The notes: generated by a model from the sequence alone, not told the origin. A DNA stretch of 64,000 bases from a virus (IMGVR_UViG_3300011115_000874:96799-160798); one strand, 5' to 3'. Shown: positions 34,666-57,514, counted from the first letter of the stretch. Made by a program: numbers and translations.

Positions 34666-34666
34666 A

Positions 34667-34969: not shown

Positions 34970-34980
34970 AGTATTATATT

Positions 34981-37191: not shown

Positions 37192-37472
37192 TATCCAGGT
37201 AGATTATTCAAATAAGGTAATGGTTGTCCACTTGGTGATACTGATGGAGGTACTCCTCCTAAATCTAATAATGATGGTGTAGGTAAAAAGTTACCTGTTC
37301 CATCTAAGTATTGTTGATAATCTCCGTTAACAGTGTTAAGGTTATCACCAGTTATTGAATAACTGTCATGCATTTGAGAAGCATTTGTAGCTAAAGGGTT
37401 TATAGATGGTGTGTTACCATTATAAACGGTAAGGTTTGATCCTGGCCCTTGAAGTAAGTCTAATAGTCCCAT
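37191..37472 (-). CDS. hypothetical structural protein
   Basis: 93 aa ORF with late motif at 37497-37504. Confidence 0.6.
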   Translation of the reverse strand: MGLLDLLQGPGSNLTVYNGNTPSINPLATNASQMHDSYSITGDNLNTVNGDYQQYLDGTGNFLPTPSLLDLGGVPPSVSPSGQPLPYLNNLPG

Positions 37473-37510
37473 ATTGTTTGTTTTTTAATGTTTATTATAA
37501 ATATTTAATA

Positions 37511-41589: not shown

Positions 41590-43311
41590 TTATGCTGGGA
41601 AAGTTGCTCCAGTTGGGGTAATATTGAAATCTAAGTAAATAAATTCAGCAGTTTTAGTAGGTTGTAAATAAATTTGTCCTACCATTTGATTTTGATCAAT
41701 CACTGTTGGTGTATTATTAGTATCATCCATTATTACTCGGAACGCATACAATCCTTGTCTTTGTTGAACACTTTCTAAGTATGGGTTAACTTGAGCTAAG
41801 AAATTATTTCTTGTAGCAGCTGTGTTTTGTTCAAACACTAAGTTTTGAGCAACTTGAGATATATATGATTTAAGAGAAATCAATAAACGACGAACATTTA
41901 CACGATCTAAAGCTGACGCTTGAGTTTGTAATGTTTTTTGTCCATAAACTACTACTCCAGTTCCTGGGAATGTAGCAATTGGATTTACTTTTCCGTTATA
42001 TAAAGTATCTCTATCACCTTGTGCTAAACGTCTTTCAGCTCTAATTACAGTACTTAATCCACCTCTGTTTATACCTGCTGGTGCAAACCATGGTTCAGAA
42101 ACACTATCATTATAAGCATATACTCCAGCTATTACAGTTGAAGCAGGTACCCATACGTTTTGTCCTGAGTCTGGGTCTTGTACTTGACACCATGGCCAGT
42201 AAGTAGCGGCATATGAAGTATTTCTAGAAGAAGCTTGCTGAGTTATGTCACTTACTAATTGTCCATAAGCAACCATATCTGCTACTAAAATATTATCACC
42301 ACGATTTTGAGTGTTAGTCAAAGCTGTAGTTATAGTGCTAGTATAATCTTTATTATATATACCTGGCATTAATAATATATTGTATTTGTAGTCGTCTTGG
42401 TTAGCTAATAAAATTAAACTAGATGTATAATTAGAACCTACTAATCCTTGAGTATTTGTGCTATTAATAGTTTGGTAGAAATTAGCTCCACCTGTAATTG
42501 CTCCAACTGCTCCACCAAATGATCCACTAGCAACTGATGGTAATGATGAGGTGTATAGAGGATTTGGTGTACCATCATTTTGGAAATAATATGGTGTAGT
42601 AATATTAATACTCTTTACACGCACATAATTTGAACGGTTAGGGAAACTACCTGTTAATTGTAGATAAGCAGTTCCTGTACTTGTATCTGTTTGGTAAGTA
42701 TATTTATAATCTCCAATTATTTTAGATACATAATTTGGTGAAAATGGATCTAATGATAAACCAGCGTATGTTTCTAAAACTGTTGGGTTTAAATTAGTAT
42801 CATTACCTTGACGAATTATTAAATCAAATGTTCCAGAAGAACTATTTGAAGCAACAACCTGCCATCTTACATTATCAGCTGAACCACTTGGTAATGAACC
42901 ACTAATTTCTGTACTTGTACTGTTTGCTATTGTTCCTTCAGCAATTGTTTCTAATACTAATACAGTAGAAGATCCGGTGTTTAAAATAGCACTACTAGTA
43001 GCAGAAGTATAAGTTCCATTTACAACACGAGTAACTAACAATGAAGTTCCCCCATTAGCAAAGTAATTATAAGCTGCTATAGATGTAAAATATGTGTAAG
43101 TGTTACTAGTACTAACAGTACTACCACTAGTAAAGGTAGTACCAAATTGTTGTTGATATTGAGAGTAAGAAGTAACTACTGTAGGTATTCCTACTCGTCC
43201 TTTTACAGTTGGGCCGATAATAGCTGCCCCAGCGGTTACAGGACCTTGAGATACAAATGAAGTGTCATTTTCTCTCGCTAATACGCCTGGTGATATTAAA
43301 GTTTCTGCCAT
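41590..43311 (-). CDS. tail sheath protein (gp18-like)
   Basis: SPGV..RE.D, WFAPAG.NRG, YGQKT, DRVNVRRL, FEQN, PTKTAEFI. Confidence 0.97.
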   Translation of the reverse strand: MAETLISPGVLARENDTSFVSQGPVTAGAAIIGPTVKGRVGIPTVVTSYSQYQQQFGTTFTSGSTVSTSNTYTYFTSIAAYNYFANGGTSLLVTRVVNGTYTSATSSAILNTGSSTVLVLETIAEGTIANSTSTEISGSLPSGSADNVRWQVVASNSSSGTFDLIIRQGNDTNLNPTVLETYAGLSLDPFSPNYVSKIIGDYKYTYQTDTSTGTAYLQLTGSFPNRSNYVRVKSINITTPYYFQNDGTPNPLYTSSLPSVASGSFGGAVGAITGGANFYQTINSTNTQGLVGSNYTSSLILLANQDDYKYNILLMPGIYNKDYTSTITTALTNTQNRGDNILVADMVAYGQLVSDITQQASSRNTSYAATYWPWCQVQDPDSGQNVWVPASTVIAGVYAYNDSVSEPWFAPAGINRGGLSTVIRAERRLAQGDRDTLYNGKVNPIATFPGTGVVVYGQKTLQTQASALDRVNVRRLLISLKSYISQVAQNLVFEQNTAATRNNFLAQVNPYLESVQQRQGLYAFRVIMDDTNNTPTVIDQNQMVGQIYLQPTKTAEFIYLDFNITPTGATFPA

Positions 43312-43335
43312 GGTTTATGTTATGTTTGTTTAATT

Positions 43336-43343
43336 ATAAATAT
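43336..43343 (-). promoter_or_regulatory. putative late promoter motif ATATTTAT (sheath)
   Basis: Recurrent intergenic motif upstream of virion genes. Confidence 0.7.
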
Positions 43344-43360
43344 CTTAAAAAAAGTCAAAA

Positions 43361-43612
43361 TTATGAAACCGGGATGAACTCTCCTTTTTCTAAGTCAATA
43401 TTTCCATCACCATATTTTTCTTGAAGTTCTTTAGCTATTTTTGTTTCTTCTTCAATTTGTTTTTGAAGTTGTGATTTAAGAGATTGTTTGTCTAAATCTA
43501 AAAGTTGAATACGATACTCTACTGTTCCTAACGCTTGAACTAAGTTTGATTGATTTGTTTGAATTGTCTTTAAAGATTGAATTTCTTCTTGTGTTAAAAC
43601 TTTGTTTTCCAT
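43361..43612 (-). CDS. small coiled-coil protein
   Basis: 83 aa with heptad pattern, ends KYGDGNIDLEKGEF; late motif upstream. Confidence 0.65.
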   Translation of the reverse strand: MENKVLTQEEIQSLKTIQTNQSNLVQALGTVEYRIQLLDLDKQSLKSQLQKQIEEETKIAKELQEKYGDGNIDLEKGEFIPVS

Positions 43613-43646
43613 AAAATTTATTTTTTGTTATTGTTTATTATAAATA

Positions 43647-44528
43647 TCACGAGGGAGTTGGTAAGTTATTAATATCTACTACTGTTTCTGATGTTACTAC
43701 TAGTTTATTTCTATTTGAAAATTTACTTACAAATGTTGTACCTTTTTGTATTGTATCAGGAATAATATACCCGTGCATTTTTAAACTAAATGTACTTTTA
43801 ACTACTCTTTCCTTATTATCAGATAATTCAACTGTAGAAGCAAATGAGTCAATATTTGTTTTAAATTTAAAACGCTCAGGATCACCCCAATAAGCGTCAG
43901 ACGCGTATTCTACTGCTTCAATAATTTTATTTAATTGTTCATTATAATAAGTAAATACAGCACAATCATATGTTACTGTTAAATAATCAGGTACAACTGT
44001 AGCGTATAATGTTTGTTCTGGTTTAATTCCATTAAGGATATTAAATTTACTATAAGCGTTTTGTTGGCTATATTTTTTATTAGTTATAGCTATATTATTA
44101 GGATGATTAGCATCTAGTTTATTAGCTAAACCTCTATTTTTTTCAATGTTATTTCTTTTAAACATTAAAAGTGGAGCCATTATTCTACTTTGTAAATCTC
44201 TTATATATCCAAATTTTTGGAATGAAGCCCATTTTTCAGGTGAACCATATATTACAGGAACTGGGAGTGATTCTCCATTCTGTAGTACAGTGGGTCTAAT
44301 TACATTTTCAAAATAATACATTACAGCCCAGTCTAAATCTTCTAAACCAATTGAAAATGGTTTTGTAGTATCATCTTTAAATGATGTTTGAGTTGCTCTA
44401 TTAACATTATTAGTATCATTAGGATTACCAGTAGGAGAGAATCCAACACCACCAGGGGTAAGTGGTTCTTGTAAAGATTCACTTATCTCTCTTTGTGTTT
44501 TAGGTGTTACTTTTCTTTGCTTAGCCAT
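43647..44528 (-). CDS. tail terminator / neck protein (gp15-like)
   Basis: VPVIYGSPEKW motif; gene order neck, neck, terminator, sheath. Confidence 0.7.
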   Translation of the reverse strand: MAKQRKVTPKTQREISESLQEPLTPGGVGFSPTGNPNDTNNVNRATQTSFKDDTTKPFSIGLEDLDWAVMYYFENVIRPTVLQNGESLPVPVIYGSPEKWASFQKFGYIRDLQSRIMAPLLMFKRNNIEKNRGLANKLDANHPNNIAITNKKYSQQNAYSKFNILNGIKPEQTLYATVVPDYLTVTYDCAVFTYYNEQLNKIIEAVEYASDAYWGDPERFKFKTNIDSFASTVELSDNKERVVKSTFSLKMHGYIIPDTIQKGTTFVSKFSNRNKLVVTSETVVDINNLPTPS

Positions 44529-45037
44529 TATAATCTTTGTTTAATCAAATTTATACGATCAGCAGGAATGTAATGAGTTTCACACACTACACTTACATTA
44601 TAACCAAATTGATCTAAACCTGGGTTTAATGGGTTAGTACTATATGGATAATCAGGATCTTTACCTGCAAAGTATTGTTTAGTATTTGTATTATCAACTT
44701 CAAAATATGATTCTTGATATAAGATTACATCTCCTACTTCAATATGAGTATTAGCATCTACTAAATCATCTCTTAAGAATGCTACTTTAATACTCCAGTC
44801 AAAGTCAACACCAAACTCACTTGTAGGACTTGTATTATCCCCTACTTCAATTAAAGAGTTTAATAATATTGGGCCATCAAAAAACTTACCACCAGATGAT
44901 TCACCATACATGTTTATTTTAGTTTGATCTAAAACATACTTGTAAATAGCAACTTGTTGGGTGATAATATCTCCTAACAACTCACGGTTGATTTTTCTGA
45001 ACATTGATATGTCTCTCGCTGAGCCAAATATTGCCAT
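44528..45037 (-). CDS. head completion / neck protein (gp14-like)
   Basis: NMYGES, EVGDVI..Q..YFEV; position. Confidence 0.7.
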   Translation of the reverse strand: MAIFGSARDISMFRKINRELLGDIITQQVAIYKYVLDQTKINMYGESSGGKFFDGPILLNSLIEVGDNTSPTSEFGVDFDWSIKVAFLRDDLVDANTHIEVGDVILYQESYFEVDNTNTKQYFAGKDPDYPYSTNPLNPGLDQFGYNVSVVCETHYIPADRINLIKQRL

Positions 45038-46215: not shown

Positions 46216-46250
46216 GTGTTAGATTTTGTTATAAATATAACGCAGAGGAA

Positions 46251-46598
46251 TTATATAATTGGTTCTTCTGGGGTTGGCTCAGGAGTTGGTTCTGGAGCAG
46301 GTGGAGAATATTTTGTAAATGTAGATGCGCTATTAATAGCATTAGCATCTTTAAGATTATCAATCACATAAGTATCTAAAGCATCAATCAATTGAGTGTA
46401 TGCATCTGTGATTGCAGGATCATATGTTAAAGTAGCTTTATCAATACTTTGATATCCTACTGCACCATTGTTAGCAATGAATACATCCATTGCAATTTGA
46501 CCTGCATATTGAAGGTGTGGTACTAATGTTAATAGAGGAGATTCGTAAATCAATCCTGTTTGTGGGTTTTGGAAAAATCCGGTTACTTGTACTGCCAT
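46251..46598 (-). CDS. hypothetical fibre-associated protein
   Basis: 115 aa with PEPTPEPTPE tail; late motif upstream. Confidence 0.55.
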   Translation of the reverse strand: MAVQVTGFFQNPQTGLIYESPLLTLVPHLQYAGQIAMDVFIANNGAVGYQSIDKATLTYDPAITDAYTQLIDALDTYVIDNLKDANAINSASTFTKYSPPAPEPTPEPTPEEPII

Positions 46599-46626
46599 TG
46601 TTTTATTTTATTATAAATATATTAAT

Positions 46627-47319
46627 TTATGATAATCCAAATCTAGTTTTTGTAGCGTTGTAGTTTTGGGAGATTTCTTGTTGGAAGAGTGCTCTGTTGT
46701 AAATTTGAGTAGTATAAATATTACCTTGTAAATATGCTGTTGTCTTATTTCTAATAGTAGCATATCCTAATTCATATAAGCCTGATCCTAGTACTGTGGA
46801 ATTAGTAAATATTCTAGAGGTTTGTTCAATTCCATTTAAGTATGGGATGTTAGTTGATCCGTTTCTGGTTAAAGTAATATTATTAATAGATGCAGGTATA
46901 TTAGTTGTTGATGATATTACATATGATGTGATGCTACCGCTAGCATAATATGCTGTTAATTCTCTAGTGCTACCAAGGGTATTAGCTGTAATTAATAATG
47001 CAGGAGAAGTTGCATAGTTGTTTGAGAATATAAAGTGCTCTTTATCTCCAGAATTGTTTAATTTAAACCATATACTTATTGTAAAATCATTTTGTGTTAA
47101 GTTTTTTGTTCCTAAAGTACAATAATCATTAGTACCATCAAATACTATACTTCCGCCATTATTACTATCAAAAGTAGGCCCATTAATTAAACTTCCACTT
47201 AATGCGGGATTACCTAAACTAAACCAGTTAGTACTACCACTAGTATAACTCTTTGTATTACCAGCATCTAATGCTAATACTAATCCATTAGTAACTATAG
47301 GGGGTGATCCGTAATACAT
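46627..47319 (-). CDS. LamG / concanavalin-like virion protein
   Basis: IVTNGLVLALDAGNTKSY, FDGTNDY, FTISIWFK, IYNRAL..EI.QNYNA. Confidence 0.85.
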   Translation of the reverse strand: MYYGSPPIVTNGLVLALDAGNTKSYTSGSTNWFSLGNPALSGSLINGPTFDSNNGGSIVFDGTNDYCTLGTKNLTQNDFTISIWFKLNNSGDKEHFIFSNNYATSPALLITANTLGSTRELTAYYASGSITSYVISSTTNIPASINNITLTRNGSTNIPYLNGIEQTSRIFTNSTVLGSGLYELGYATIRNKTTAYLQGNIYTTQIYNRALFQQEISQNYNATKTRFGLS

Positions 47320-47320
47320 T

Positions 47321-48724
47321 TTATAATGTTGTTAAAAATATTGATGATTGATCGTCTAATTGATAGTCATAGGTAGCTGCGAATCTTACAATATGTGGAG
47401 CGTCCATAGCTGCCGTTAGATCTACTTTTGAAAATTGTATTTTATTAGTACCTGCACTAAATAAAGTTTGAAATGGTGTCAAGTTTGTTGGTGTGATTTG
47501 ATTGCCAGTTTTAGTTCCATTTATGAAGGTATTGATAGTTGATCCATTAAATGATAAAATACACTTAAAACGTTTTTGACTATTAGCAGGAGAGAATGTA
47601 AAGCTACCTAAATTTTGTTGAGCATTTTGATTCCAAAAATTTACTGAGGTTGAGTTAAGTCTTCTAAGATACCAAATTAAGGGTGATCCATTAACATCAC
47701 CTGTGCTAGCAGCATAGTCACCTTGATACTCTATATCAAAGAATATTGTCCATTGTGATGTGCTAGAGCTTATAAATGGTGATAAAACATCATCTACTGA
47801 TCTGCTTGCTGTTACGGCTGCAGTTGGGATGAGGGAAGTAGCAAATGAATAATTCTCAAGTTGTATCCCGTAAAAATACATTGTTTTACCGGTGAAATCA
47901 GTTGACCATACTGTCGATGATGTATTAGGAGCTACGTAAACACCTAAATTAAAACTAGCATTTGCGTTAGCATTTAGTGTAAATGGTGCCATAATACATC
48001 TATACCAACCATTACCCCAATCTTCAATTTTAGCTCCAGTTGTTGGGGTTGTGCCATTACTAAGATTAAAGTAGCTTGTACCAGTGCCTGTACCTGTTTG
48101 ATTCGCATAATTTACAGATAAAATACTATTACTTCCAGCTTTAGCAAATATTGAACCACATATGCTTGAGCCACTCAAAATTCCTTGTGGTATAATATAG
48201 TATATTCCCCAACTACCTACACTTCCAGATCCTCCAGTAACTTTTGCAGCATTATAAACTCCTTCTGGGCTTGTAGTATCAACAGCAACAGAGCGCGTAG
48301 GTTGTGTGGTACCAAATGTAATCATATTTGTACCCATTGTTTGTGAATACAAATGCCAATTTTTTGAAGCTGGTTCTATTAACAATCCTTTAAACTGGTT
48401 TGGTGTACCCGTAATATATGTTAATCTTGGTTCGTTAGCAACTGCAAATTTTATGGTTCCATTACTACTAAGATAACTTCCACTATTGCTAGATCGTGTA
48501 GCTGTAAAATTACTACTAGCAGTGTTGGGTGTAACAGCGTATGAAAATCCTGTCTTTTTAGTAGAAGGAAATAATAATAAAGAAGGATTATATGCTAAAA
48601 GTCTGTTGTATTGGTCTATAAATTGAACTGTGGGTATAGCTTCGTATGCGCCTCCATCTGCTATAGCCCTTCTTAAGTAAGACTGATAGTTATTGTCTAA
48701 GGGTATTTTTGTATTTACAGCCAT
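47321..48724 (-). CDS. head-spike / fibre protein with carbohydrate-binding and LamG-like domains
   Basis: FTATRSS...NEPR...GLLIEPASKN, GNGWYRC, ATSLIPT. Confidence 0.7.
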   Translation of the reverse strand: MAVNTKIPLDNNYQSYLRRAIADGGAYEAIPTVQFIDQYNRLLAYNPSLLLFPSTKKTGFSYAVTPNTASSNFTATRSSNSGSYLSSNGTIKFAVANEPRLTYITGTPNQFKGLLIEPASKNWHLYSQTMGTNMITFGTTQPTRSVAVDTTSPEGVYNAAKVTGGSGSVGSWGIYYIIPQGILSGSSICGSIFAKAGSNSILSVNYANQTGTGTGTSYFNLSNGTTPTTGAKIEDWGNGWYRCIMAPFTLNANANASFNLGVYVAPNTSSTVWSTDFTGKTMYFYGIQLENYSFATSLIPTAAVTASRSVDDVLSPFISSSTSQWTIFFDIEYQGDYAASTGDVNGSPLIWYLRRLNSTSVNFWNQNAQQNLGSFTFSPANSQKRFKCILSFNGSTINTFINGTKTGNQITPTNLTPFQTLFSAGTNKIQFSKVDLTAAMDAPHIVRFAATYDYQLDDQSSIFLTTL

Positions 48725-48725
48725 A

Positions 48726-49472
48726 TTATGTTATATTAAACCTCCCTTTTGTTGCGTTGTAGTTTTGGAGTACTTCTTGGGCTGAAAGTACTCTATCGTA
48801 AACTCTTACTGGGCCTATGCTTCCTGAAAAGAAGATATTATTGTTGTTGTTATCTCTTCCAAAATTCAATTGATTTGTAGGCCATGGAGATGTTCCCGTC
48901 CAAGCACTAGCTGCATTAGTTGATTGTCCTCTTAATATTCCATCTACGTATAAAGAGACTGTGCTACCATTAGTCTGTGTAATAACTTGATGCCACGTAT
49001 TATCAAAGTAGTTTGCACCAGCAGGAGTTGTTATTGAAATAGCTCCCGATGGGCTAGAGTTAAATACAGTACGCATTTGTCCTGCCGGGTTTATAGTGCA
49101 CATAATTCCGTATGTAAACCCAAATATACCAGATCCACCTGCCTGCCCTGATCCTGTGCCTGCTGTTTTAAACCATGCCTCAAGTGTAAGTTCAGGCTTT
49201 GGCCAAAAACCTGCAGTTTGAGGGTTGTTTGATACTAATACAGCGCTTCCAGTACCATTAAATACGAAACATCCACCTCCTTCAGGTGAATATTGGGGTA
49301 ATGTTACTGTACTGTTTTGGTTTTGTAATGTAGAAGATGTTATGTTAGTGTATCCGGGATTTAAGTTCCTAAGCGTAGTGCTACCTGATGTATATGATTT
49401 GGTGTTAGCCGCATCAAAGTACATTATTAATCCATTAGTAACTATTGGAGGTGTATTTTTGTATATAGCCAT
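48726..49472 (-). CDS. LamG / concanavalin-like virion protein (paralogue of 46627..47319)
   Basis: PPIVTNGL...NTKSYTSGST, TLEAWFK, LYVDG, VYDRVLS..EV.QNYNATK. Confidence 0.85.
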   Translation of the reverse strand: MAIYKNTPPIVTNGLIMYFDAANTKSYTSGSTTLRNLNPGYTNITSSTLQNQNSTVTLPQYSPEGGGCFVFNGTGSAVLVSNNPQTAGFWPKPELTLEAWFKTAGTGSGQAGGSGIFGFTYGIMCTINPAGQMRTVFNSSPSGAISITTPAGANYFDNTWHQVITQTNGSTVSLYVDGILRGQSTNAASAWTGTSPWPTNQLNFGRDNNNNNIFFSGSIGPVRVYDRVLSAQEVLQNYNATKGRFNIT

Positions 49473-49474
49473 AA

Positions 49475-52162
49475 TTAAGCAAAACTTGAACTTCTATATC
49501 TTGTTCCATCGTATATAAATAGCAATGATCCACTCCAATATGCACTTCCTGTTTGTGGAGCAACTGATTGAGATAATGGTAATATAAAGCTACCACTTAT
49601 CCTCATTGTTCCGTAGATGTTTACTTGTGAACCTGTCTTTTCAAATACTTTGTTTGGGAAGTCATATATGTTAACGTCCCAGTTACTTGTAGCCTCTATA
49701 ATTGGAATACCAGATACATCATTTACCATGTAAATGCTTCCTGATGTTACATCTGTTACTGTTAATTGGCTTCCTGCACTTGTTGATCCAAAATCAGCTA
49801 TTACATTATTTCCTCCAGTTGCTGTAGCTGCATTACTTGAAGTGAATGTTGCTGCTACTCGGAATGCTGTTTCTGTTTGTGATCCTGTTGTTTGGAAGAA
49901 TGTAGGTGTAATACTTACACCATAATATTGTCCTCCAACTATATTACTAGCGGATATAATAGGTGATATACTAAATGCAGATTGTGATACTGCAAGTGAC
50001 ATTGTAGGTGAAGTAAATGCTACTTGACCATTGTCTAGCATAGTCAATAAAGTTGTTGGTGTACTGTTTCGTACTAAAAATGTATTTGTAGCATTTGTTG
50101 CTCCTGATCCTATTACATCTAGGGCAGCGTTTGGAGATTGTTGATTAATACCAACTGTCTTAGCAAATTGACCTACAGTTATTCTACCAGCAGATGCTCC
50201 ATTACCCACCATCTCTAATCTTCCATTTCCTGCTGATATACTAAAATCAGCTGATGATCCGCCTACGTTTTGTATTCTAATTGCAGCGCTTGATGAATTG
50301 GCTATATGGATATTAGCACTTGGGTTATTTGTTCCTATACCAACATTACCACTTGAGCTAACAAGCATTAATGAAGCAGTGCCTTGATTAAAAATTACAC
50401 TACCACTTGTTGTTTCAATTGCTCTATAATCAGCAGCAGAAGTAAGTGTTGGAGAAATAAATAAACCTCTTGTAATACCATTTGCACCACCAGTTTGATT
50501 AATAGTAGGAAGAATAGAGTAAGCTGAGTATGTAGCAGTTCCACTTGTTGGACTAAAACCACCACTAAAACTTAATCCGGTTTGGGTCCCAGTTGTTGAA
50601 GTAAATGTTGCTCCAGTAAGTAATAAAGTAGTTTGTGAAAATGTAGCATACCCAAATGAACTGTGAATTGAAAAAGCTCCTATTGATAAGTTACCAGATC
50701 CATTAATTTGTGAATTTTGTGCAAATACCATTGGTCCATTAACTCTCGCAGTTCCATTTATATCTAAACTATAAGCAGAAGATCCAGTTGTATTAATACC
50801 AACATTTCCACTTCCACTTACAAATAGTATGCTTGAAGATGCTGGTGAGTCTATTCTTAATAAAGCAGAGCCTGATGAGCCTGATACGTGTAATTGTGCA
50901 GATGGCGCTATGGTTCCTATCCCCATTCTTCCAGATCCATCTACAACAAACTTAGGAGTTGTAGAATCGCCTATGTGTACTTGGAATTGTTTAAAGGCAT
51001 CTGAAGTGCCACCTTCAAATTTAAATCCAAATCTACCAAAGAAGTCAGCTGATGATGCTGCGTTTGTATAAAAATCCCATACACCTCTGTTTTGGTTAGC
51101 ATTAGCTGAGCTTATATCATATCTAGCTAATAGTCCTTGGTTTTGGTATTGATGGTAAGAACCGTATAAATCTAAATTATATTGTGCTGAGCTTGTTCCT
51201 ATACCAACAAATCCATTATCTAATACTACTAATGAGGCTGATGCGTTAGTGTTTTCAACTCGGAGTGCTGTTGTAGCTGATGTTGCGCCTGATCCTTTTA
51301 TTTTTGCATTTCCATTCACATCTAGCTTAAACCCTGCATCTGTTGTTGTGTTAATTAGGAAGTTTCCTGTTGTAGATGCAACACGTACTTTTTCACTTCC
51401 ACCTACTAAAAATTGTATTGTTGGGCCATTAATTAATGCTTGTGCTCCATTTGCTCTAAAATAGTTAACAGCTGTATAAGCTAATTCTGAGTAAGTGGAG
51501 TTATTTAAAGTAAGATATGAACCACCACTTAATAATCTTACAGTTCCACTTACATCCAATGTGTTTGTAGGTGTAATTGTCCCAATACCAACATTACCAC
51601 TACTACTAACAAATAATAAATTACTACCAACTAATAATTGAGTAGCATTTGAACTAGATACTGTTAATGAACCCGTTATTGTTAAACTACCTGTTGGTAC
51701 TACAACAGTACCATACAAAGTTTGAGTATCATTAGCACTATCTCCTAACTGGTTTGAACCAGTAGATAATACAGTTTGATTAACTACTAAAGTACCAATA
51801 GAAGCAGTTCCTAACACTGTTACATTTCCTGTTACTATTGCTGAAGACATTGTTGTTGCTCCAACTACATCTACACTTCCAGAAAAAATTGCAGGACCTA
51901 TATTTGTAAATGTAGATGATCCTGATACTAAAAACGAGCCTGTTACTTGTATGCTAGAGGTAGTAGCGTAAACGCCTCCTCCCATGTTAGCAAATGGTTC
52001 TGATGGTCCTGCTACACCTTGTGGTCCTACTGGTCCTTGAGGTCCAGGATTATTTACTTCTATAACACTAGTAATAGGTTGAGGAACAATAATTTGATTT
52101 TCCTCTGTTACTACTGTTACATTAGCTATATCGGTTTGACTATTTATACTATTATTCTGCAT
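49475..52162 (-). CDS. long fibre protein
   Basis: Short collagen-like GPQGPVGPQG stretch, repeated GNVGIGT..P modules. Confidence 0.8.
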   Translation of the reverse strand: MQNNSINSQTDIANVTVVTEENQIIVPQPITSVIEVNNPGPQGPVGPQGVAGPSEPFANMGGGVYATTSSIQVTGSFLVSGSSTFTNIGPAIFSGSVDVVGATTMSSAIVTGNVTVLGTASIGTLVVNQTVLSTGSNQLGDSANDTQTLYGTVVVPTGSLTITGSLTVSSSNATQLLVGSNLLFVSSSGNVGIGTITPTNTLDVSGTVRLLSGGSYLTLNNSTYSELAYTAVNYFRANGAQALINGPTIQFLVGGSEKVRVASTTGNFLINTTTDAGFKLDVNGNAKIKGSGATSATTALRVENTNASASLVVLDNGFVGIGTSSAQYNLDLYGSYHQYQNQGLLARYDISSANANQNRGVWDFYTNAASSADFFGRFGFKFEGGTSDAFKQFQVHIGDSTTPKFVVDGSGRMGIGTIAPSAQLHVSGSSGSALLRIDSPASSSILFVSGSGNVGINTTGSSAYSLDINGTARVNGPMVFAQNSQINGSGNLSIGAFSIHSSFGYATFSQTTLLLTGATFTSTTGTQTGLSFSGGFSPTSGTATYSAYSILPTINQTGGANGITRGLFISPTLTSAADYRAIETTSGSVIFNQGTASLMLVSSSGNVGIGTNNPSANIHIANSSSAAIRIQNVGGSSADFSISAGNGRLEMVGNGASAGRITVGQFAKTVGINQQSPNAALDVIGSGATNATNTFLVRNSTPTTLLTMLDNGQVAFTSPTMSLAVSQSAFSISPIISASNIVGGQYYGVSITPTFFQTTGSQTETAFRVAATFTSSNAATATGGNNVIADFGSTSAGSQLTVTDVTSGSIYMVNDVSGIPIIEATSNWDVNIYDFPNKVFEKTGSQVNIYGTMRISGSFILPLSQSVAPQTGSAYWSGSLLFIYDGTRYRSSSFA

Positions 52163-52201
52163 TAAGCTTCAGGTTTATTATAAATATGAAGGTAAATTAG
52201 G

Positions 52202-54640
52202 TTATGCTATAAATGTCCAACCTGTAGATTTGTTTATGTATAATCCTTCTGTTGCGTCTGTACAGTATACCATTAGTCCTACTGCTGGTGATGTGATTGC
52301 TAATCTTTGAGCGTTAGTCATGCGAGAAGGTAAGAAGCCTTTTGTAGTAGATTTTACTTCAAGTAATGCAGATGCTGAACTTAAGAAACTGTAATCTTGT
52401 GATATAACAACTCCTTTTGCAGCTGAAGGGATAATCAAACGAAGGTCATTACCACTTCCTACATCCATAGTACCAGTGTATATTGTAACACCAGATACAT
52501 TGCTTGTTGCACTTGGATTTATATTTCCACAAGTTAATACACCGGTTCTAACTGTTCCATTCACATCTAAATTATACTGTGCTGATCCTGTGTTTATACC
52601 TACAAATCCATTATCTAATACTACTAATGATGCAGATGCGTTGGTGTTTTCAACACGTAAAGCAGTTGTAGCACTTGTAGCGCCTGATCCTTGCACCTGA
52701 AGTTGTGCTGTTGGTACTGTAGACACTCCTCCCACATACATTGAATTTCTTACATTCACATATGGTGTAGCACTGTTACCAGTAAGTATGAGTTGTGTAC
52801 GGTACTGTGAGGTAGATGTATCATAAGCACTTAGTGCTGTAGAAGAAAATCCACTCAATACAGAATCATTTCCAACGAATACACTCTTGCCATCATTTCC
52901 GTTTGAGTATAAACCATATGGAGCTTGTACAGGACCATCATTTCTTACCGTTAGTAGACTTGTTCCAGCGCTGTTTTGTAATGATAACGCGTTACCACTT
53001 GCAAGTGTTATTCCACTACCTTGTATACTTAATGACCCAGTTATACTCTGCGACCCAGTATTAGTCAACATTCTATGCCACCCAACTTGAGAACCACTAT
53101 TATAATAGTATAATCCTTCGTTTGTTGATCCTGTTAAGTATGTTATTAAACCTTGAGCAGGAGATGTGATTGAGGCTGTTGTTGCTGTGCGTGGTGGGAG
53201 GAAGCCTTTTGTTGTGCTGTCTACTTGTAATAATGCTGATGCTACAGCAAGTACTGTTGGTTGGCCTTGGGTTACTCTAACATTTTGAGCTGTGTTATTT
53301 TGTGATGCTATTAGTTGTAGGCCGCTTCCATATGATCCTAGTATTTTGCCTTCATTACCAATAAATAAAGTATTACCAACTGATACACTTCCATTTACTT
53401 CTAATTTATTTCCTACGCCTGAATCTATAGATGTGCCTATACCTACAAAACCACTTGAACTAACAAATAATAATGAAGTAGATCCACTTTGTAATAAAAC
53501 ATTACCCGCAGTGGTTTCAATCGCTCTAAAATCTGCTGCTGCCGTTAGCGTTGGATTGATGTAAAGACCTCTTGTTATTCCATTAGCACCACCTGTTTGG
53601 TTTATGGTAGAAGATACTCTTAAAATATTGAAAACTCCTGTTCCTGAAGTTGGTGAAAAAGTTCGGTTAAATCCTAAACTACTTCCCAACATCATTACAC
53701 CACCTTCACCCGATGTATATTGTCTATCGGCTATACCAGGTGAAGTTACATAACTTTGATAACCACTAATAGTACTACCAACATTATCTCCTATTCTTAC
53801 TGATGTACCTGCTGTTGTAATATTTGTAAGTGCCGTTGTTGGATCTACTGATAAAACAGAAGGCAAACCTGCGCCAAAGAATATTGAATTAGCTCTTGCG
53901 CTACCGCTTACATCGAGCTTGTACCCTGCGTCTGTTGTTGTGCCGATGCCAAAATTACCACCGTTGAAATAACTAAAATTTGAAGTAGACCTTATTGCAA
54001 ATCGAATAACCCCACCAGCATACAAAAACATTTCAGCGGTGTTGTTACTTGCTCCATCTCTCGTTACTTGAAACAATGTTCCGCTTGTAGCACTTTGTAA
54101 CAAAATACCTTCGTCATTAGCGTTTGCTTTTACTGTCAAAGCTTTTGTTGGCGTAGCTGTACCAATACCCAACCTTGCGTTTGTATTATCCCAAAAGAAA
54201 CCAGCGCTTGAAGTTCCAAATGAGACACTTCCACTTACAGTCAAACTACCTGTTGGTATAACTACTGTGCCATACAACGTCTGGGTGTCATTAGCATTAT
54301 CTCCTAATGTATTAGAGCCTGTAGAATTAATTGTTGTATTAATTTGTAATACATTGATAGAAGCAGTACCTAATACTGTTACATCTCCTGATACAACAGC
54401 TGATGACATTGTAGTAGGACCTGTTATAATTGCACTACCTGAGAATATGGCTGGGCCTATGTTTGTAAAAGTAGAAGATCCAGATACTAAAAATGAGCCT
54501 GATACCTGTAGGCTACTTGTTGTAGCCCAAATGCTTCCACTTACATTATTGAATGGTTGTGTTGATCCAGAAGGACCAGTTGCACCTTGTGGTCCCGTAG
54601 AACCTTGTGGGCCGGGATTATTTATTACAATAGTACGCAT
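52202..54640 (-). CDS. long fibre protein (paralogue of 49475..52162)
   Basis: Shared N-terminal and internal modules; two SALL.V.STTKGFLP.R modules. Confidence 0.8.
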   Translation of the reverse strand: MRTIVINNPGPQGSTGPQGATGPSGSTQPFNNVSGSIWATTSSLQVSGSFLVSGSSTFTNIGPAIFSGSAIITGPTTMSSAVVSGDVTVLGTASINVLQINTTINSTGSNTLGDNANDTQTLYGTVVIPTGSLTVSGSVSFGTSSAGFFWDNTNARLGIGTATPTKALTVKANANDEGILLQSATSGTLFQVTRDGASNNTAEMFLYAGGVIRFAIRSTSNFSYFNGGNFGIGTTTDAGYKLDVSGSARANSIFFGAGLPSVLSVDPTTALTNITTAGTSVRIGDNVGSTISGYQSYVTSPGIADRQYTSGEGGVMMLGSSLGFNRTFSPTSGTGVFNILRVSSTINQTGGANGITRGLYINPTLTAAADFRAIETTAGNVLLQSGSTSLLFVSSSGFVGIGTSIDSGVGNKLEVNGSVSVGNTLFIGNEGKILGSYGSGLQLIASQNNTAQNVRVTQGQPTVLAVASALLQVDSTTKGFLPPRTATTASITSPAQGLITYLTGSTNEGLYYYNSGSQVGWHRMLTNTGSQSITGSLSIQGSGITLASGNALSLQNSAGTSLLTVRNDGPVQAPYGLYSNGNDGKSVFVGNDSVLSGFSSTALSAYDTSTSQYRTQLILTGNSATPYVNVRNSMYVGGVSTVPTAQLQVQGSGATSATTALRVENTNASASLVVLDNGFVGINTGSAQYNLDVNGTVRTGVLTCGNINPSATSNVSGVTIYTGTMDVGSGNDLRLIIPSAAKGVVISQDYSFLSSASALLEVKSTTKGFLPSRMTNAQRLAITSPAVGLMVYCTDATEGLYINKSTGWTFIA

Positions 54641-55041
54641 TATACTGTTACTTGGTTACTTAAGCTAATTTGTCCTTCTAATAATCGTACTGTTAGTGGG
54701 CAAGCTCCACTCCCTGAGTATATTTCTAAGTCGTATTTAGCTGTAGTAAATGTGAGTAAAGACGAGGTACAAGCAGCTATATATATTCCGATGGAACCAC
54801 TAGTAGGTGGTGTACTTCCATTGCTTCCGCTAAAATTTAGGCCAGTACCATCGGCGTTTAGAGAACTAGATAATGTAATATATACTGTTCGAGATGCATT
54901 AGAAGCATAATCAGATGCAATTTGCATCCGTCCTGAATATCCAGTTAAGTCAACTGGGTTATTGGATGAATCTTTGTATTGTATCTCAAAGTTTGTAGTT
55001 GTTCCTTGTTCTATTGTAAATGAATATCTTCCTGCTCCCAT
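54640..55041 (-). CDS. Ig-like fibre attachment / adaptor protein (BppU-N-like)
   Basis: FTIEQG, PVDLTGY..RMQI, YDLEI, RLLEG. Confidence 0.65.
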   Translation of the reverse strand: MGAGRYSFTIEQGTTTNFEIQYKDSSNNPVDLTGYSGRMQIASDYASNASRTVYITLSSSLNADGTGLNFSGSNGSTPPTSGSIGIYIAACTSSLLTFTTAKYDLEIYSGSGACPLTVRLLEGQISLSNQVTV

Positions 55042-55063
55042 GTGTATTGTTTAGCAATAAATA

Positions 55064-55759
55064 TTAGTCTCTATAATCTGAGTATAGTTTAAGTATAGGT
55101 TCTACAATTTCATGGCGATGGTTTGTTTTAAGGGTAACTACTTTTACTCCTTTAATATCTGCCTCTAATCGGGTGAAGAAACCAATACCACTATCTTTCT
55201 TTTGTTTTAAGTCTGTTTGAGTGATGTCTCCACAAAATATCATTTTTCCACCTTTACCTAAACGACCTAATATCATTTCGGTTTGACCATGAGTAATATT
55301 TTGACATTCGTCTACTATCACTACTGCGTCTGGGAATGTTCTACCTCTCATAAATGCAAATGGTACAATTTCAATTTGTCCATCTGCTACCATTTTTTCT
55401 ATCTTAGTCTTATCATATAACATATGTAAGTTAGCATAGATAGGAGCCAACCAAGGATCCATTTTTTCTTTTAAGTCACCAGGTAAGAAACCTATTTCTT
55501 CTTTTGCTACTGTGGGTCTAGTGATGATGATTCGTTCAATGTCTTTTCTAAACATTAAATCTAAAGCTACTTGACAAGCAACTAAGGTTTTACCTGATCC
55601 AGCCATACCTTTTAATAGTGTGACAGGATGATCTAAGATGACTTGCTTTGCTTCTTTCTGTTCCTCGTTTAAAGTTATTTTAAAATTAATCGGGTTTTTA
55701 GGCTTTCTTTTTTCTTTAAAAATGTTTTTAGCCTCCTCACTTCTGTTGAAATCTGTCAT
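55064..55759 (-). CDS. phoH: PhoH-family ATPase
   Basis: GMAGSGKT, IGFLPGDLKEK, FMRGRTF, DECQN, GD..QTD. Confidence 0.96.
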   Translation of the reverse strand: MTDFNRSEEAKNIFKEKRKPKNPINFKITLNEEQKEAKQVILDHPVTLLKGMAGSGKTLVACQVALDLMFRKDIERIIITRPTVAKEEIGFLPGDLKEKMDPWLAPIYANLHMLYDKTKIEKMVADGQIEIVPFAFMRGRTFPDAVVIVDECQNITHGQTEMILGRLGKGGKMIFCGDITQTDLKQKKDSGIGFFTRLEADIKGVKVVTLKTNHRHEIVEPILKLYSDYRD

Positions 55760-55787
55760 GACTTATTATTTGAGTATAAATATCAAC

Positions 55788-55812
55788 AAAAAAGCCCAGA
55801 TTACTCTGGGCT
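55788..55812 (-). terminator. intrinsic terminator after the major capsid gene
   Basis: AGCCCAGA-GTAA-TCTGGGCT followed by TTTTT. Confidence 0.88.
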
Positions 55813-55840
55813 CAATTGTTAGATATTATCTAGGTTATCC

Positions 55841-57514
55841 TTAAAGGGTGTTTAAACCATTTACATAGATCTTACCATAGAATTCAGGACGTAACATCTT
55901 CTTAGCGAAACGAGTCAACAATCCTTTACGTGGAGTGAAGGTGTTTGGATCGTAGATAAGAGGAGTCATGATCAACGGAATGTATGGAGCAAATACAGCA
56001 CCTGCTTCTAGGAACTGCTTACCACGGAAACCTAATAAGATAGTGTTTTCTGTCATGTAAGGGTTCTTATAAACAGTGTAACGGCTGTTAAATTGACCAG
56101 CTTTTTGTACACCGAATGCATATTCCATATCTTCAGCACCGTTGCTATTTGCAGCGAATCCTGGGATTGATTCCAAGATAGTTGAAATAGTTGGAGATAC
56201 TACCATGAAATTTGCACCACCACGAAGGGTTAATTGGTGAATACGGTTACTGATCTTGTTAACTTTAGTACCTAAAGTTTGGAACCAAGCACCTTGAGTG
56301 TTGTAGAAACCTAATGACTGTGTGTAATCAGTTCCAGCAGCGTTCAATGTGTTGTTATTAATAGCTGACCAGTATTCAGTATTACCTGCTGGGGCATCTT
56401 CAATCAACATATCAAGAATTTCAAGATCAATCTCTAAAGAGATGTACTCGCTCATGATGTTAGTTAATTCAGCTTCAGCATCTAAGTTTTGGTAAGCGTT
56501 CAAATCTTGAGCAAATTCTGGCGTCCATGCTGCTTTTAACTTTTTAGTCTTAGCAGTAATTGCTTGAGATTGCATAGAAATGTTAATTTCTGGGATAGAT
56601 GAACTAATACTAGTACCTAATGAGTTAGGGTTAGCGAAAGTTGAGTTATCTTCGAAATCACCACGATACTGATCAGTAGTAGCTTTGTTATAGAATACAG
56701 TATACACTTGAGTAGCAGCTACAGCTGTAGAAGCAGTAACGAAGAATGTGTAAGTAGTAGTAGCTGGGTTGTAGTTGTGGAATGCAGATATGTTACTTGC
56801 AGCTCCTAAAGCAGACCCACTAATAATAAATCCACGTGCAGCATCAGCATCAGCGTTTGGTAATCTAGAAGAAGAAATAGTAAATTTCTTTAAACGTACT
56901 CCATCTTGTGCGGATGCAGATAAAGAAGAATCAAATCCTACTTCAGCCCAAGAAGCTGAGGTGATCGAAAAATCAGCAACTGAAGTACCTATAGTGAAAG
57001 TACTTGGACCAGATGATGTTTGGTTAGTAGTGTAAGTAAAACGACCAGCACCATATAAACCACCTTCAGCAGCTGGGGTAGCGAATGGAGTTGTGCTAGA
57101 AGGGTTACGAGTACCATACAAAGATTGACCACTAGTAAATGGATTCTTAGTAGTACCATATTGGAAATCTAAGAAGAATACAAGACCAGAAGGTAAGTTC
57201 ATTGGTTGAACACTAACGAATTCTTTCGCTGAGATCTGACCAAATACTTTACGTACTAATGGTAATGCAATTCCAGCCCAGTTCTCACCAGAAGTACCTG
57301 ATGTGAAGAAAGATGCGTTACCTGTAGCAGTAGCTTCTACTACTAATTGCTTTGCTTGATTTTCCAACATCAAAGCCATGTTGTTTTTGTTTACGTCTTC
57401 GCCTAAACCTTCCAAAAGGCCGGTTTTGTTCCATTTGTTTGCTAATCTAGCAGCGTCACCTTGAAGTGACTTCCATGGATTTGCGGACTCGACTAATGAT
57501 TGAATTGTGTTCAT
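55841..57514 (-). CDS. major capsid protein (gp23-like)
   Basis: LPLVRKVF, VQPMNLPSGLVF, AKTKKLKA.WTPE.AQDL, APYIPL, DPNTFTPRKG..TRF. Confidence 0.97.
   Translation of the reverse strand: MNTIQSLVESANPWKSLQGDAARLANKWNKTGLLEGLGEDVNKNNMALMLENQAKQLVVEATATGNASFFTSGTSGENWAGIALPLVRKVFGQISAKEFVSVQPMNLPSGLVFFLDFQYGTTKNPFTSGQSLYGTRNPSSTTPFATPAAEGGLYGAGRFTYTTNQTSSGPSTFTIGTSVADFSITSASWAEVGFDSSLSASAQDGVRLKKFTISSSRLPNADADAARGFIISGSALGAASNISAFHNYNPATTTYTFFVTASTAVAATQVYTVFYNKATTDQYRGDFEDNSTFANPNSLGTSISSSIPEINISMQSQAITAKTKKLKAAWTPEFAQDLNAYQNLDAEAELTNIMSEYISLEIDLEILDMLIEDAPAGNTEYWSAINNNTLNAAGTDYTQSLGFYNTQGAWFQTLGTKVNKISNRIHQLTLRGGANFMVVSPTISTILESIPGFAANSNGAEDMEYAFGVQKAGQFNSRYTVYKNPYMTENTILLGFRGKQFLEAGAVFAPYIPLIMTPLIYDPNTFTPRKGLLTRFAKKMLRPEFYGKIYVNGLNTL

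What the first reader, a model, noticed from the sequence alone, without database searches (positions are those of the whole stretch)
41590..57514. [ST]-[GAS]-S tripeptide concentrated in surface-exposed parts of virion proteins: candidate modification (glycosylation) sequon
Seen, counted by eye: in the capsid protein about 7 copies (TSS, SAS, SAS, SSS, SGS, TAS, SSS) all fall in residues ~165-310 (about 56585-57022) and none in the conserved core. In the sheath about 10 copies fall in residues ~60-300 and none in the C-terminal core. The motif saturates the fibres, LamG proteins and the 133-aa adaptor (SSS, SGS, SGS, TSS, SGS). It is essentially absent from the tube, scaffold and protease. 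Established: the gp23 insertion region and the protruding sheath domains face outward, the tube is buried, and virion glycosylation is known in some mycobacteriophages. Inference: unrelated folds converged on one exposed motif, as expected for a recognition site of a modifying enzyme that coats the particle. No glycosyltransferase is visible in this window.
Basis: partly seen in the sequence, partly recalled or inferred. Interest (0 to 1): 0.8.

Follow-up and report, generated by a model that had tools for sequence, protein, structure and literature searches.

The report
Ser/Thr-Gly-Ser tag on phage surface
The outward-facing head, sheath and fibre proteins of this uncultured T4-like water phage carry the tripeptide Ser/Thr-Gly-Ser about four times too often, and the phage has its own late-expressed set of sugar-transferring enzymes, so the tripeptide may mark where the particle is sugar-coated, though no chemistry shows this yet.

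Summary
The excess survives local-composition shuffles: 123 hits against about 49 expected in ten virion proteins. The motif as written is too broad. The signal is [ST]-G-S followed by a hydrophobic residue (64 against 16). "None in the core, tube or scaffold" says nothing, because fewer than one hit is expected there.

The excess is specific to this lineage. T4 and cyanophage P-HM1 lack it. Flavobacterium phage immuto and Microcystis phage Mel-JY01 have it. Many sites keep their position in orthologues.

They form a 13-kb operon of soluble enzymes behind the promoter motif that precedes the virion genes. Its four-gene core is conserved in all relatives checked and is followed by a variable cassette. 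In 50,697 phage records the core enzyme occurs almost only in this capsid's relatives. The DNA of immuto carries no sugar (PMC10516641).

The sugar-attachment reading is plausible (about 0.4) but unproven. A purely structural turn motif is nearly as likely. Unchecked notes of this scan report similar motif-plus-transferase pairs in other phages.

The parts
56594..57124 (-). Insertion region (residues 131-307) of the gp23-type major capsid protein (gene 55841-57514). It holds all 7 motif hits: TSS166, SAS186, SAS199, SSS214, SGS232, TAS260 and SSS304.
   Evidence: Only residues 66-130 and 308-537 align to T4 gp23. Local-shuffle expectation inside the region is 2.7 (P 0.013). S199 and S201 are invariant and A200 nearly so in 74 orthologues.
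42412..43140 (-). Outer-domain region (residues 58-300) of the tail sheath (gene 41590-43311). It holds all 10 hits: SGS62, TSS105, TGS112, SGS137, SGS142, SSS157, TGS220, TSS254, SGS262 and TSS296.
   Evidence: Only residues 357-571 align to T4 gp18 domain III. The count is 10 against 3.3 expected, reached by none of 1000 shuffles. Sites 62, 142, 157, 220 and 262 are conserved in 55 orthologues; the motif's middle Gly is invariant at 142, 220 and 262. In the model 7 of 10 sites start in loops.
54640..55041 (-). 133-aa virion-module protein of unknown role (phrog_1084) with 5 hits (SSS58, SGS71, SGS81, TSS92, SGS109).
   Evidence: 5 hits against 1.9 expected.
52202..54640 (-). 812-aa fibre. 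It starts with a short collagen-like Gly-X-Y run (GPQGSTGPQGATGPSGST), followed by V-[ST]-G-S-[FL] repeats of period 6. It has 22 hits.
49475..52162 (-). 895-aa fibre, paralogous at its N-terminus to the 812-aa fibre. It has a Gly-X-Y run (GPQGPVGPQGVAGPS) and 30 hits.
   Evidence: It shows weak similarity to Bdellovibrio fibre adhesins (8ojn, E 3.5e-6).
48726..49472 (-). 248-aa LamG/ConA-like protein with 5 hits.
   Evidence: PF13385, E 3.8e-19; 5 against 1.3 expected.
47321..48724 (-). 467-aa tail or virion protein with 7 hits.
   Evidence: phrog_5939; 7 against 3.4 expected.
46627..47319 (-). 230-aa LamG/ConA-like protein with 3 hits.
27745..30573 (-). Two further fibre-like proteins outside the finding's coordinates, of 617 aa (29 hits) and 323 aa (5 hits). 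The 617-aa protein has a 9-residue repeat, Q-T-S-S-F-V-T-N-A, in ten copies.
   Evidence: z is 8.2 for the 617-aa protein.
31099..39901 (-). Contrast set: three large S/T-containing tail-module proteins without any family match, probably baseplate or tape-measure proteins (1188, 736 and 796 aa). They carry 2 hits against 8.3 expected.
   Evidence: z -2.4; no family assignment in PHROGs.
43335..43343 (-). Example of the ATATTTATA promoter-like motif, 32 nt before the sheath start. The same motif heads the glycosyltransferase operon at genome position 95322.
   Evidence: The genome has 42 copies on the gene strand and 3 on the other. The motif stands before the sheath, tube, hub, neck and fibre genes. 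It does not stand directly before the DNA polymerase, helicase, RNR or clamp-loader genes.

Best explanation
The tripeptide [Ser/Thr]-Gly-Ser, usually followed by a hydrophobic residue, is a lineage-specific mark on the outward-facing domains of the head, sheath, neck-region proteins and fibres.

The most likely reading is that its Ser residues are acceptor sites for O-glycosylation in the cytoplasm by the phage's own enzymes. These enzymes lie in a late-expressed operon 1.5 kb before the window (genome 82142-95288).
- A conserved core would start the glycan on folded or folding virion proteins. The core is a 61-aa protein, two GT-B transferases of 478 and 433 aa, a 152-aa protein and a 206-aa GT2.
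- A variable cassette would extend and decorate the glycan. In this phage it holds GDP-mannose 4,6-dehydratase, a GT10-like fucosyltransferase, three more GT2 enzymes, a methyltransferase and a HAD-nucleotidyltransferase fusion.

Shown here: the motif excess, its lineage specificity, its conservation, the gene content and layout of the operon, and the co-inheritance of the operon core with the capsid lineage.

Inferred, not shown: the timing of expression (from a promoter motif), the protein target, the acceptor residue and the nature of the glycan.
For: Motif:
- [ST]GS is 64 against 16.2 (z 12) in ten virion proteins. SGS is 6-fold up in non-fibre proteins. Position 3 is Ser, not Thr: SGS plus TGS total 64, SGT plus TGT total 17.
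- The rest of the proteome is depleted, 35 against 60, z -3.4.
- The capsid and sheath profiles are unrelated.
- Three of four independent extra sheath inserts in relatives are also enriched.

Lineage:
- No excess in T4 or in cyanophage P-HM1.
- Excess present in Mel-JY01, immuto and the IMG/VR relatives (capsids 501 against 228; sheaths 730 against 306).

Enzymes:
- GT2 x4, GT10-like, GT-B x2, GMD, methyltransferase and HAD-NTP transferase.
- None has a predicted membrane helix.
- The operon is headed by the ATATTTATA motif that precedes the virion genes.
- The core is conserved at 43-85% identity in all six relatives checked, followed by a variable cassette.
- All five near-complete relatives have GT2 genes.
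- Among 50,697 phage records the GT-B 478 protein occurs only in immuto, Mel-JY01, LR756508 and RM378, plus one actinophage. The first four are exactly this capsid's nearest relatives, and the three with named hosts span three host phyla. This argues for a phage-borne acceptor.
- The best solved relative is chlorovirus B736L (E 4.6e-8).

DNA as target is unlikely:
- No ThyA-type hydroxymethylase was found.
- Measured immuto DNA holds dA, dC and dT plus fdPreQ1 only (PMC10516641).
Against: - No measurement shows a glycan on any virion of this clade.
- Many sites are fixed in position, some with an invariant Gly and hydrophobic flanks. That is what a structural beta-turn or strand-end motif looks like.
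- In the fibres the motif recurs with period 6 or 9 as part of structural repeats.
- The association between the transferase core and the motif rests on one clade, so it is effectively a single evolutionary event. RM378 has the transferase but only a weak excess (15 against 10.1).
- The promoter class is inferred from sequence only.
- The transferases are too diverged to assign an acceptor.
- Soluble transferases can also act on lipid-linked host glycans.
- Exposure of the Ser side chains was not computed.
Confidence: 0.4

Rival explanations
1. The motif is purely structural. [ST]-G-S followed by a hydrophobic residue is a tight-turn or strand-end element favoured by the beta-rich domain types this clade uses for its outer surfaces: beta-helical fibres, LamG, the sheath outer domains and the capsid insertion domain. 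It is inherited with those domains. The glycosyltransferase operon serves another target.
For: - Sites are positionally conserved, some with an invariant Gly (sheath 142, 220, 262), and the capsid has invariant S199 and S201 with A200 nearly so.
- Hydrophobic residues are enriched at -4 to -1 and +3 to +5, and polar residues are depleted there.
- The fibres show periodicities of 6 and 9 residues.
- In the models the sites lie at strand ends, hairpin turns and loops.
- Capsid homologues down to 30% identity keep about 2.5-fold excess in the same insertion region, as expected for homologous structural positions.
Against: - Structural preferences should be universal, yet the beta-rich, S/T-rich virion proteins of T4 and P-HM1 show no excess.
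- The excess appears in sequence-unrelated proteins and in independently acquired sheath inserts.
- Thr is strongly disfavoured at position 3 although it suits beta structure.
- The rest of the proteome is depleted.
Confidence: 0.35
2. The virion is glycosylated by the operon, but the acceptors are not defined by this tripeptide. Examples would be general Ser/Thr-rich loops, or only the collagen-like Gly-X-Ser stalks of the fibres. On this reading the tripeptide excess is a by-product of fibre repeat structure.
For: - The operon evidence is as above.
- Relatives carry fibres of more than 1000 residues of Gly-[Ser/Thr]-Ser triplets.
- The 812- and 895-aa fibres start with Gly-X-Y runs.
- According to the review PMC8968730, the collagen-like spore proteins BclA of Bacillus and BclA1 of C. 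difficile are glycosylated.
- Known flagellin O-glycosylation has no strict sequon (own knowledge).
Against: - SGS is 6-fold enriched in the non-fibre proteins as well.
- The capsid and sheath excess is independent of fibre repeats.
Confidence: 0.15
3. The operon modifies something other than the virion, such as host envelope glycans (for superinfection exclusion or release) or phage DNA. On this reading the motif has no link to it.
For: Glycan gene clusters of unknown role occur in marine T4-like cyanophages (own knowledge). Viral glycosyltransferases are known to modify DNA and host serotype (PMC12619734).
Against: - DNA: immuto DNA has canonical dA, dC and dT, and only fdPreQ1 replaces dG. 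No ThyA-like gene was found. The TET/JBP search was uninformative because its control rang nowhere.
- Host envelope: there is no flippase, polymerase, priming transferase or any membrane helix in the operon. The core is conserved across phages of Bacteroidota, Cyanobacteria and Rhodothermus, whose envelopes differ. The operon has a late-type promoter.
Confidence: 0.1

Closest known systems
Virion O-glycosylation of mycobacteriophages (Che8, Corndog, Myrna) by phage-encoded glycosyltransferases (Freeman et al. 2023, cited in PMC12619734; the paper itself is not held)
   Same: Phage-encoded transferases would decorate capsid and tail proteins in the cytoplasm and coat the particle. A distant homologue of the GT-B 478 protein sits in a small sugar cluster of the actinophage TJE1.
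   Different: In mycobacteriophages the glycans sit on C-terminal extensions of the capsid and tail-tube subunits. Here the candidate sites are internal tripeptides in insertion and outer domains. The tube has none. The operon is far larger. The phages are T4-like myoviruses of Gram-negative and cyanobacterial hosts.
Chlorovirus (PBCV-1 and NY-2A) capsid glycosylation by virus-encoded soluble glycosyltransferases and GDP-sugar enzymes
   Same: The virus encodes a GDP-mannose 4,6-dehydratase and soluble transferases. The best solved relative of the core GT-B is chlorovirus B736L (3oy2, E 4.6e-8). In chloroviruses the major capsid protein is the target (own knowledge).
   Different: Chlorovirus glycans are N-linked at atypical sites on a double-jelly-roll capsid protein (own knowledge). 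Here Ser O-linkage is proposed on HK97-fold capsid, sheath and fibre proteins. The function of B736L itself is unknown.
Glycosylated collagen-like fibres (BclA of the Bacillus exosporium, BclA1 and BclA3 of C. difficile)
   Same: Gly-X-Y stalks with a hydroxy amino acid in the repeat, and glycosylation by dedicated soluble transferases (PMC8968730 and PMC7157674). The 812- and 895-aa fibres start with Gly-X-Y runs, and relatives have Gly-[ST]-Ser arrays of more than 1000 residues.
   Different: Most hits in this window are not in Gly-X-Y arrays. They lie in beta-strand and loop contexts of globular domains.
Serine-rich-repeat adhesin glycosylation by the GtfA/GtfB pair
   Same: Two adjacent GT-B-fold proteins of about 480 and 430 aa, and a Ser-small-Ser acceptor pattern modified in the cytoplasm (own knowledge).
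   Different: There is no significant sequence match. GtfA (4pqg) scores only E 0.046, over the generic nucleotide-sugar region. Pfam scans of both GT-B proteins matched only generic GT1-type families. The substrates here are folded domains, not disordered repeats.

Membership tests
Phage virion O-glycosylation (mycobacteriophage type) | Phage-encoded glycosyltransferase genes | tested here: met
   Four GT2, one GT10-like and two GT-B proteins at genome 82142-95092.
Phage virion O-glycosylation (mycobacteriophage type) | Glycan covalently bound to virion proteins (glycostain, mass shift) | not testable with these tools
   This needs purified virions. The cultured relative immuto would serve.
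Phage virion O-glycosylation (mycobacteriophage type) | Acceptor sites on C-terminal extensions of the capsid and tail-tube subunits | tested here: not met
   The capsid hits lie at residues 166-304 of 557. The tube has 0 hits.
Phage virion O-glycosylation (mycobacteriophage type) | Transferase genes expressed with the virion genes | tested here: inconclusive
   The operon is headed by the ATATTTATA motif shared with the sheath, tube, hub, neck and fibre genes. The promoter class is inferred from sequence, without transcript data.
Chlorovirus-type capsid glycosylation | Virus-encoded soluble transferases plus GDP-sugar enzymes | tested here: met
   GMD has E 1e-113. None of the 20 island proteins has a membrane helix. 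The match to B736L has E 4.6e-8.
Chlorovirus-type capsid glycosylation | N-linked glycans on the major capsid protein | not testable with these tools
   N-x-S/T is not enriched (98 against 90.3), but chlorovirus sites are atypical.
Bacteroidota general O-glycosylation | Acceptor motif D-(S/T)-(A/I/L/V/M/T) | tested here: not met
   12 against 15.2 expected in the ten virion proteins. That system also acts in the periplasm, which virions assembled in the cytoplasm do not pass through (own knowledge).
GtfA/GtfB serine-rich-repeat glycosylation | Sequence membership of the GT-B pair in the GtfA and GtfB families | tested here: not met
   GtfA (4pqg) scores E 0.046 with no significant stretch. The 433-aa protein has no match. 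Only generic GT1 Pfam hits were found.
Collagen-like (Gly-X-Y) fibre proteins | Uninterrupted Gly-X-Y repeats | tested here: met
   The 812- and 895-aa fibres have runs of 5-6 triplets. Relatives have runs of hundreds of triplets. Triple-helix formation was not tested.
T4-type virion proteins | gp23-type capsid and gp18-type sheath with conserved core and variable outward insertions | tested here: met
   PHROG 138 and PHROG 23. PDB matches to T4 gp23 (E 3e-27) and gp18 (E 2e-44) cover the cores only. The fold match is to the T4 head.

The most novel reading that the evidence does not exclude
A sequon-directed, cytoplasmic Ser O-glycosylation system coats the head, sheath and fibres of a very abundant clade of aquatic T4-like phages. 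The acceptor would be [Ser/Thr]-Gly-Ser followed by a hydrophobic residue. The initiating module of four conserved genes has been inherited with the capsid across phages of Bacteroidota, Cyanobacteria and Rhodothermus. A swappable sugar-tailoring cassette diversifies the coat between close relatives.
Probability: 0.35. Interest if true: 0.85.

Novelty: new variant of a known kind. Interest (0 to 1): 0.6.

Why it matters
As far as the literature I could search shows, virion glycosylation in phages has been demonstrated only for a few actinobacteriophages, where it shields particles from antibodies. No acceptor rule turned up there.

If this tripeptide is an acceptor signal, three things follow.
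- It would give a readable sequence mark for predicting sugar-coated phages from metagenomes.
- It would extend the phenomenon to T4-like phages of Gram-negative bacteria and cyanobacteria. More than 8000 sheath homologues were found in public data.
- It would explain why large soluble glycosyltransferase islands with variable cassettes persist in these genomes.

The question is directly testable, because a relative (Flavobacterium phage immuto) is in culture. If the motif turns out to be structural, it is still a useful caution against reading short Ser/Gly motifs as sequons.

Tried and rejected
- Composition artefact: rejected. The excess holds under 10-, 20- and 40-residue local shuffles.
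- DNA-level motif: rejected. All synonymous codons are used at the sites.
- One shared domain re-used in capsid and sheath: rejected. hhalign probability is 0.2%.
- T4 late promoter TATAAATA: not used here (18 copies on the gene strand, 49 on the other). The motif in use is ATATTTATA.
- Bacteroidota D-S/T-x motif and N-x-S/T: not enriched.
- Correlation of capsid excess with neighbour-gene excess across 54 relatives: no signal in the ratios (rho -0.03). The test was confounded by giant Gly-Ser-Ser fibres whose expected counts exceed 100.
- The search for homologous proteins on the sheath gave only relatives of 69% identity or more, so it served no outgroup purpose.
- NCBIfam, PDB and Atlas searches could not assign an acceptor or sugar to the transferases.
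The capsid model is poor overall (pLDDT 58), though the insertion domain scores 65-87.
- The Freeman et al. 2023 paper is not held.
- Pfam gave no function for the other genes that carry the promoter motif.
- The TET/JBP search was uninformative because its control rang nowhere.


Full report
**What the window is.** The window is bases 96799-160798 of a 160,798-bp IMG/VR virus record with direct terminal repeats. Its G+C content is about 31%, and nearly all genes lie on the minus strand. It is a T4-like myophage.
- PHROG and PDB searches identify a gp23-type major capsid protein (55841-57514), a gp18-type sheath (41590-43311), a tube, a hub, a neck protein, two LamG proteins and several fibres.
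- The nearest isolates by capsid are Flavobacterium phage vB_FspM_immuto (54% identity), Microcystis phage Mel-JY01 (47%), an uncultured 484-kb phage and Rhodothermus phage RM378 (35%).
- The clade is very abundant in metagenomes.

**Checking the observation.** Shuffles of whole proteins give 123 hits against 44 expected in ten virion proteins. The stricter test shuffles residues only within 10-, 20- or 40-residue windows, which keeps local S/T/G richness.
- All ten proteins: still 123 against 48-51.
- Six non-fibre proteins: 37 against 17-18.
- Capsid plus sheath: 17 against 7.5-8.5, reached by at most 1 of 500 shuffles.

Codons at the sites follow general usage, so this is a protein-level feature.

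The motif needs narrowing.
- In the non-fibre proteins only S-G-S stands out (16 against 2.6). SAS plus TAS (5 against 4.8) and SGT (2 against 2.7) do not.
- In the fibres SGS, TGS and, more weakly, TAS are enriched.
- Over all ten proteins [ST]-G-S is 64 against 16.2, and with a following hydrophobic residue or Ala 40 against 6.7.
- Position 3 is Ser and rarely Thr (64 against 17), although both are equally abundant.

The statement that the motif is absent from the conserved cores, tube, scaffold and protease carries no weight. The expected counts there are all below one.

More telling are two depletions. Three large tail-module proteins without any family match have 2 hits against 8.3 expected. 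The remaining 201 ORFs of the genome have 35 against 60, z -3.4. T4 proteins give 27 against about 34 on the same measure, so part of that deficit may be general.

A second block of fibre-like genes outside the window (genome 28259-38501) is also enriched, 76 against 23.

**Is it generic?** No.
- T4 virion proteins show nothing: gp23 has 0 hits, gp18 4 against 2.2, gp12 2 against 2.4, wac 1 against 2.1.
- The S/T-rich virion proteins of Prochlorococcus phage P-HM1 show nothing either (33 against 29.5).
- RM378 is weak (15 against 10.1).
- Mel-JY01 shows the excess in sheath (11 against 4.5) and capsid (5 against 2.2).
- Immuto shows it in sheath (10 against 4.5) and fibres (60 against 22; 17 against 3.1).
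- Across 74 IMG/VR capsid orthologues the total is 501 against 228, and across 71 sheath orthologues 730 against 306. These orthologues are not independent of each other.
- Representative capsid homologues down to about 30% identity keep about 2.5-fold excess in the insertion region and almost no hits in the core.

**Conservation and context.** Many sites keep their position.
- Capsid: S199 and S201 are invariant and A200 is present in 69 of 74. Sites 186, 232 and 260 are present in most orthologues.
- Sheath: sites 62, 142, 157, 220 and 262 are conserved, with the motif's middle Gly invariant at 142, 220 and 262 (G46/A9 at 62). They are usually followed by Phe, Tyr, Leu or Ile.
- Flanks are enriched in hydrophobic residues and depleted in charged ones.
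- In the AlphaFold models the sites lie at strand ends, hairpin turns and loops. The capsid model has pLDDT 58 overall, with the insertion domain at 65-87. The sheath model has pLDDT 71, with the outer domain at 80-94.
- In the fibres the motif recurs with period 6 (V-[ST]-G-S-[FL]-x) or 9 (Q-T-S-S-F-V-T-N-A).

These features fit a structural element as well as they fit a recognition site.

**Unrelated folds.** Profile-profile comparison of the capsid and sheath families finds no homology (probability 0.2%). Relatives have acquired at least four unrelated extra sheath insertion domains. Three of the four families are enriched as well. Taking one representative per family, the total is 23 against 10.8.

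**The transferases.** They lie 1.5 kb before it, at genome 82142-95288, as about 17 tightly packed genes:
- two GT-B proteins (478 and 433 aa);
- GDP-mannose 4,6-dehydratase (E 1e-113);
- four GT2 proteins;
- a GT10-like fucosyltransferase;
- a methyltransferase;
- a HAD phosphatase-nucleotidyltransferase fusion;
- several proteins of unknown function.

None has a predicted membrane helix, and there is no flippase, polymerase or priming transferase.

The operon is headed by ATATTTATA at genome position 95322. This motif is strongly strand-biased (42 copies on the gene strand, 3 on the other) and usually stands 12-35 nt before start codons. It precedes the sheath, tube, hub, neck, fibre and PhoH genes. 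It does not stand directly before the DNA polymerase, helicase, RNR or clamp-loader genes. I read it as the late promoter, but that is an inference from sequence.

Comparison with five near-complete IMG/VR relatives and immuto shows the layout of the island.
- A conserved core follows a PD-(D/E)XK nuclease gene: the 61-aa protein, GT-B 478, GT-B 433, the 152-aa protein and GT2 206, at 43-85% identity.
- A cassette then differs in every genome. In immuto it holds aminotransferases, an acetyltransferase-like protein and an epimerase. Here it holds deoxyhexose and fucosyl-type enzymes.
- Conserved genes resume after the cassette.

In 50,697 phage records the GT-B 478 protein has homologues only in immuto, Mel-JY01, LR756508 and RM378, plus the actinophage TJE1. 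The first four are exactly the capsid's nearest relatives. The transferase has therefore been inherited with this capsid lineage, and the three of those phages with named hosts span three host phyla. That argues for a phage-borne rather than a host-specific acceptor. Its best solved relative is chlorovirus B736L (E 4.6e-8). The 433-aa partner belongs to virus-only clusters.

**DNA as the target.**
- The genome has no ThyA-type hydroxymethylase.
- A TET/JBP search found nothing, but its control was uninformative.
- Published LC-MS of immuto DNA shows canonical dA, dC and dT, with dG fully replaced by fdPreQ1. No glycosylated nucleoside is reported (PMC10516641). Immuto carries the same transferase core.

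**Giant Gly-Ser fibres in relatives.** Several relatives encode, a few kb after the capsid gene, fibres of 960 to more than 1900 residues. They are made almost wholly of Gly-[Ser/Thr/Leu/Ile]-Ser triplets. The 812- and 895-aa fibres of this phage start with short Gly-X-Y runs. The collagen-like spore proteins BclA of Bacillus and BclA1 of C. difficile are glycosylated (PMC8968730). This is a parallel, not evidence.

**Weighing.**

For the sugar-attachment reading:
- a short linear motif enriched in unrelated outward-facing proteins of one lineage only;
- a strict Ser at position 3;
- depletion of the motif elsewhere in the proteome;
- a large, soluble transferase operon with a late-type promoter, whose core tracks the capsid lineage;
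- DNA largely excluded as the target.

Against it:
- no chemistry;
- fixed sites, some with an invariant Gly, and periodic fibre repeats, which point to structure;
- one clade, so effectively one evolutionary event;
- RM378 has the transferase but little motif;
- transferases whose acceptors cannot be assigned.

My estimates are as follows.

| Reading | Probability |
|---|---|
| Tripeptide marks glycosylation acceptor sites | about 0.4 |
| Purely structural motif | about 0.35 |
| Virion glycosylated, but not at this motif | about 0.15 |
| Operon serves another target | about 0.1 |

**Relation to earlier notes of this scan.** First-stage notes on the neighbouring window had already listed the 13-kb island. 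Follow-up notes on other phages describe similar [S/T]-G-[S/T] excesses together with conserved transferase pairs. These are unchecked AI notes. They show that the pattern recurs in this scan, not that it is right.

Noticed in passing
L023:16835-21655, L033:14866-19890, L036:16396-19287, L055:18249-21740, L031:15719-21676: Relatives encode giant fibres of 960 to more than 1900 aa made almost wholly of Gly-X-Ser triplets (GTSGSSGSS..., or GLSGLSGIS... in L031). They share a conserved N-terminus, MAKVR[YF]LDQVPVG. They look like collagen-type stalks with Ser in the Y position.
   Followed up: partly
whole genome; e.g. window 43335-43343, 41566-41574, 52179-52187: ATATTTATA is a strongly strand-biased promoter-like motif (42 copies on the gene strand, 3 on the other), usually 12-35 nt before start codons. 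It differs from the T4 late promoter TATAAATA and precedes the virion genes and the glycosyltransferase operon.
   Followed up: partly
genome 82142-95288 (L005:2142-15288), 1.5 kb before the window: The glycan island has a conserved four-gene transferase core and a cassette that differs in each of six relatives, bounded by conserved genes. This resembles the layout of O-antigen loci.
   Followed up: yes
genome 28259-38501 (L173:8259-18501), outside the window: A second block of six fibre-like genes (318-1192 aa) has the same motif excess (76 against 23). Late-type promoter motifs stand at 30988 and 38514.
   Followed up: no
L151:3001-5199, L152:318-2456, L155:2992-5133, L161:649-2937: Sheath orthologues of relatives carry at least four unrelated extra insertion domains of 93-160 aa. 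The sheath's outer surface is a hot spot for domain gain.
   Followed up: partly
window 3789-5405: The phage encodes a full-length GroEL-type chaperonin (phrog_5725, E 3e-154). The late-type promoter motif stands two genes upstream of it.
   Followed up: no
window 49475-52162, residues 384-448: The 895-aa fibre has a stretch similar to Bdellovibrio 'cell wall surface anchor' fibre adhesins (8ojn, E 3.5e-6).
   Followed up: no
L169:1-3432 and 6245-8164 (Mel-JY01): Microcystis phage Mel-JY01 has a methyltransferase FkbM multidomain protein of more than 1143 aa and a cytidylyltransferase-like gene just before its head genes. Its homologues of the GT-B pair lie about 58 kb after the capsid gene.
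   Followed up: no
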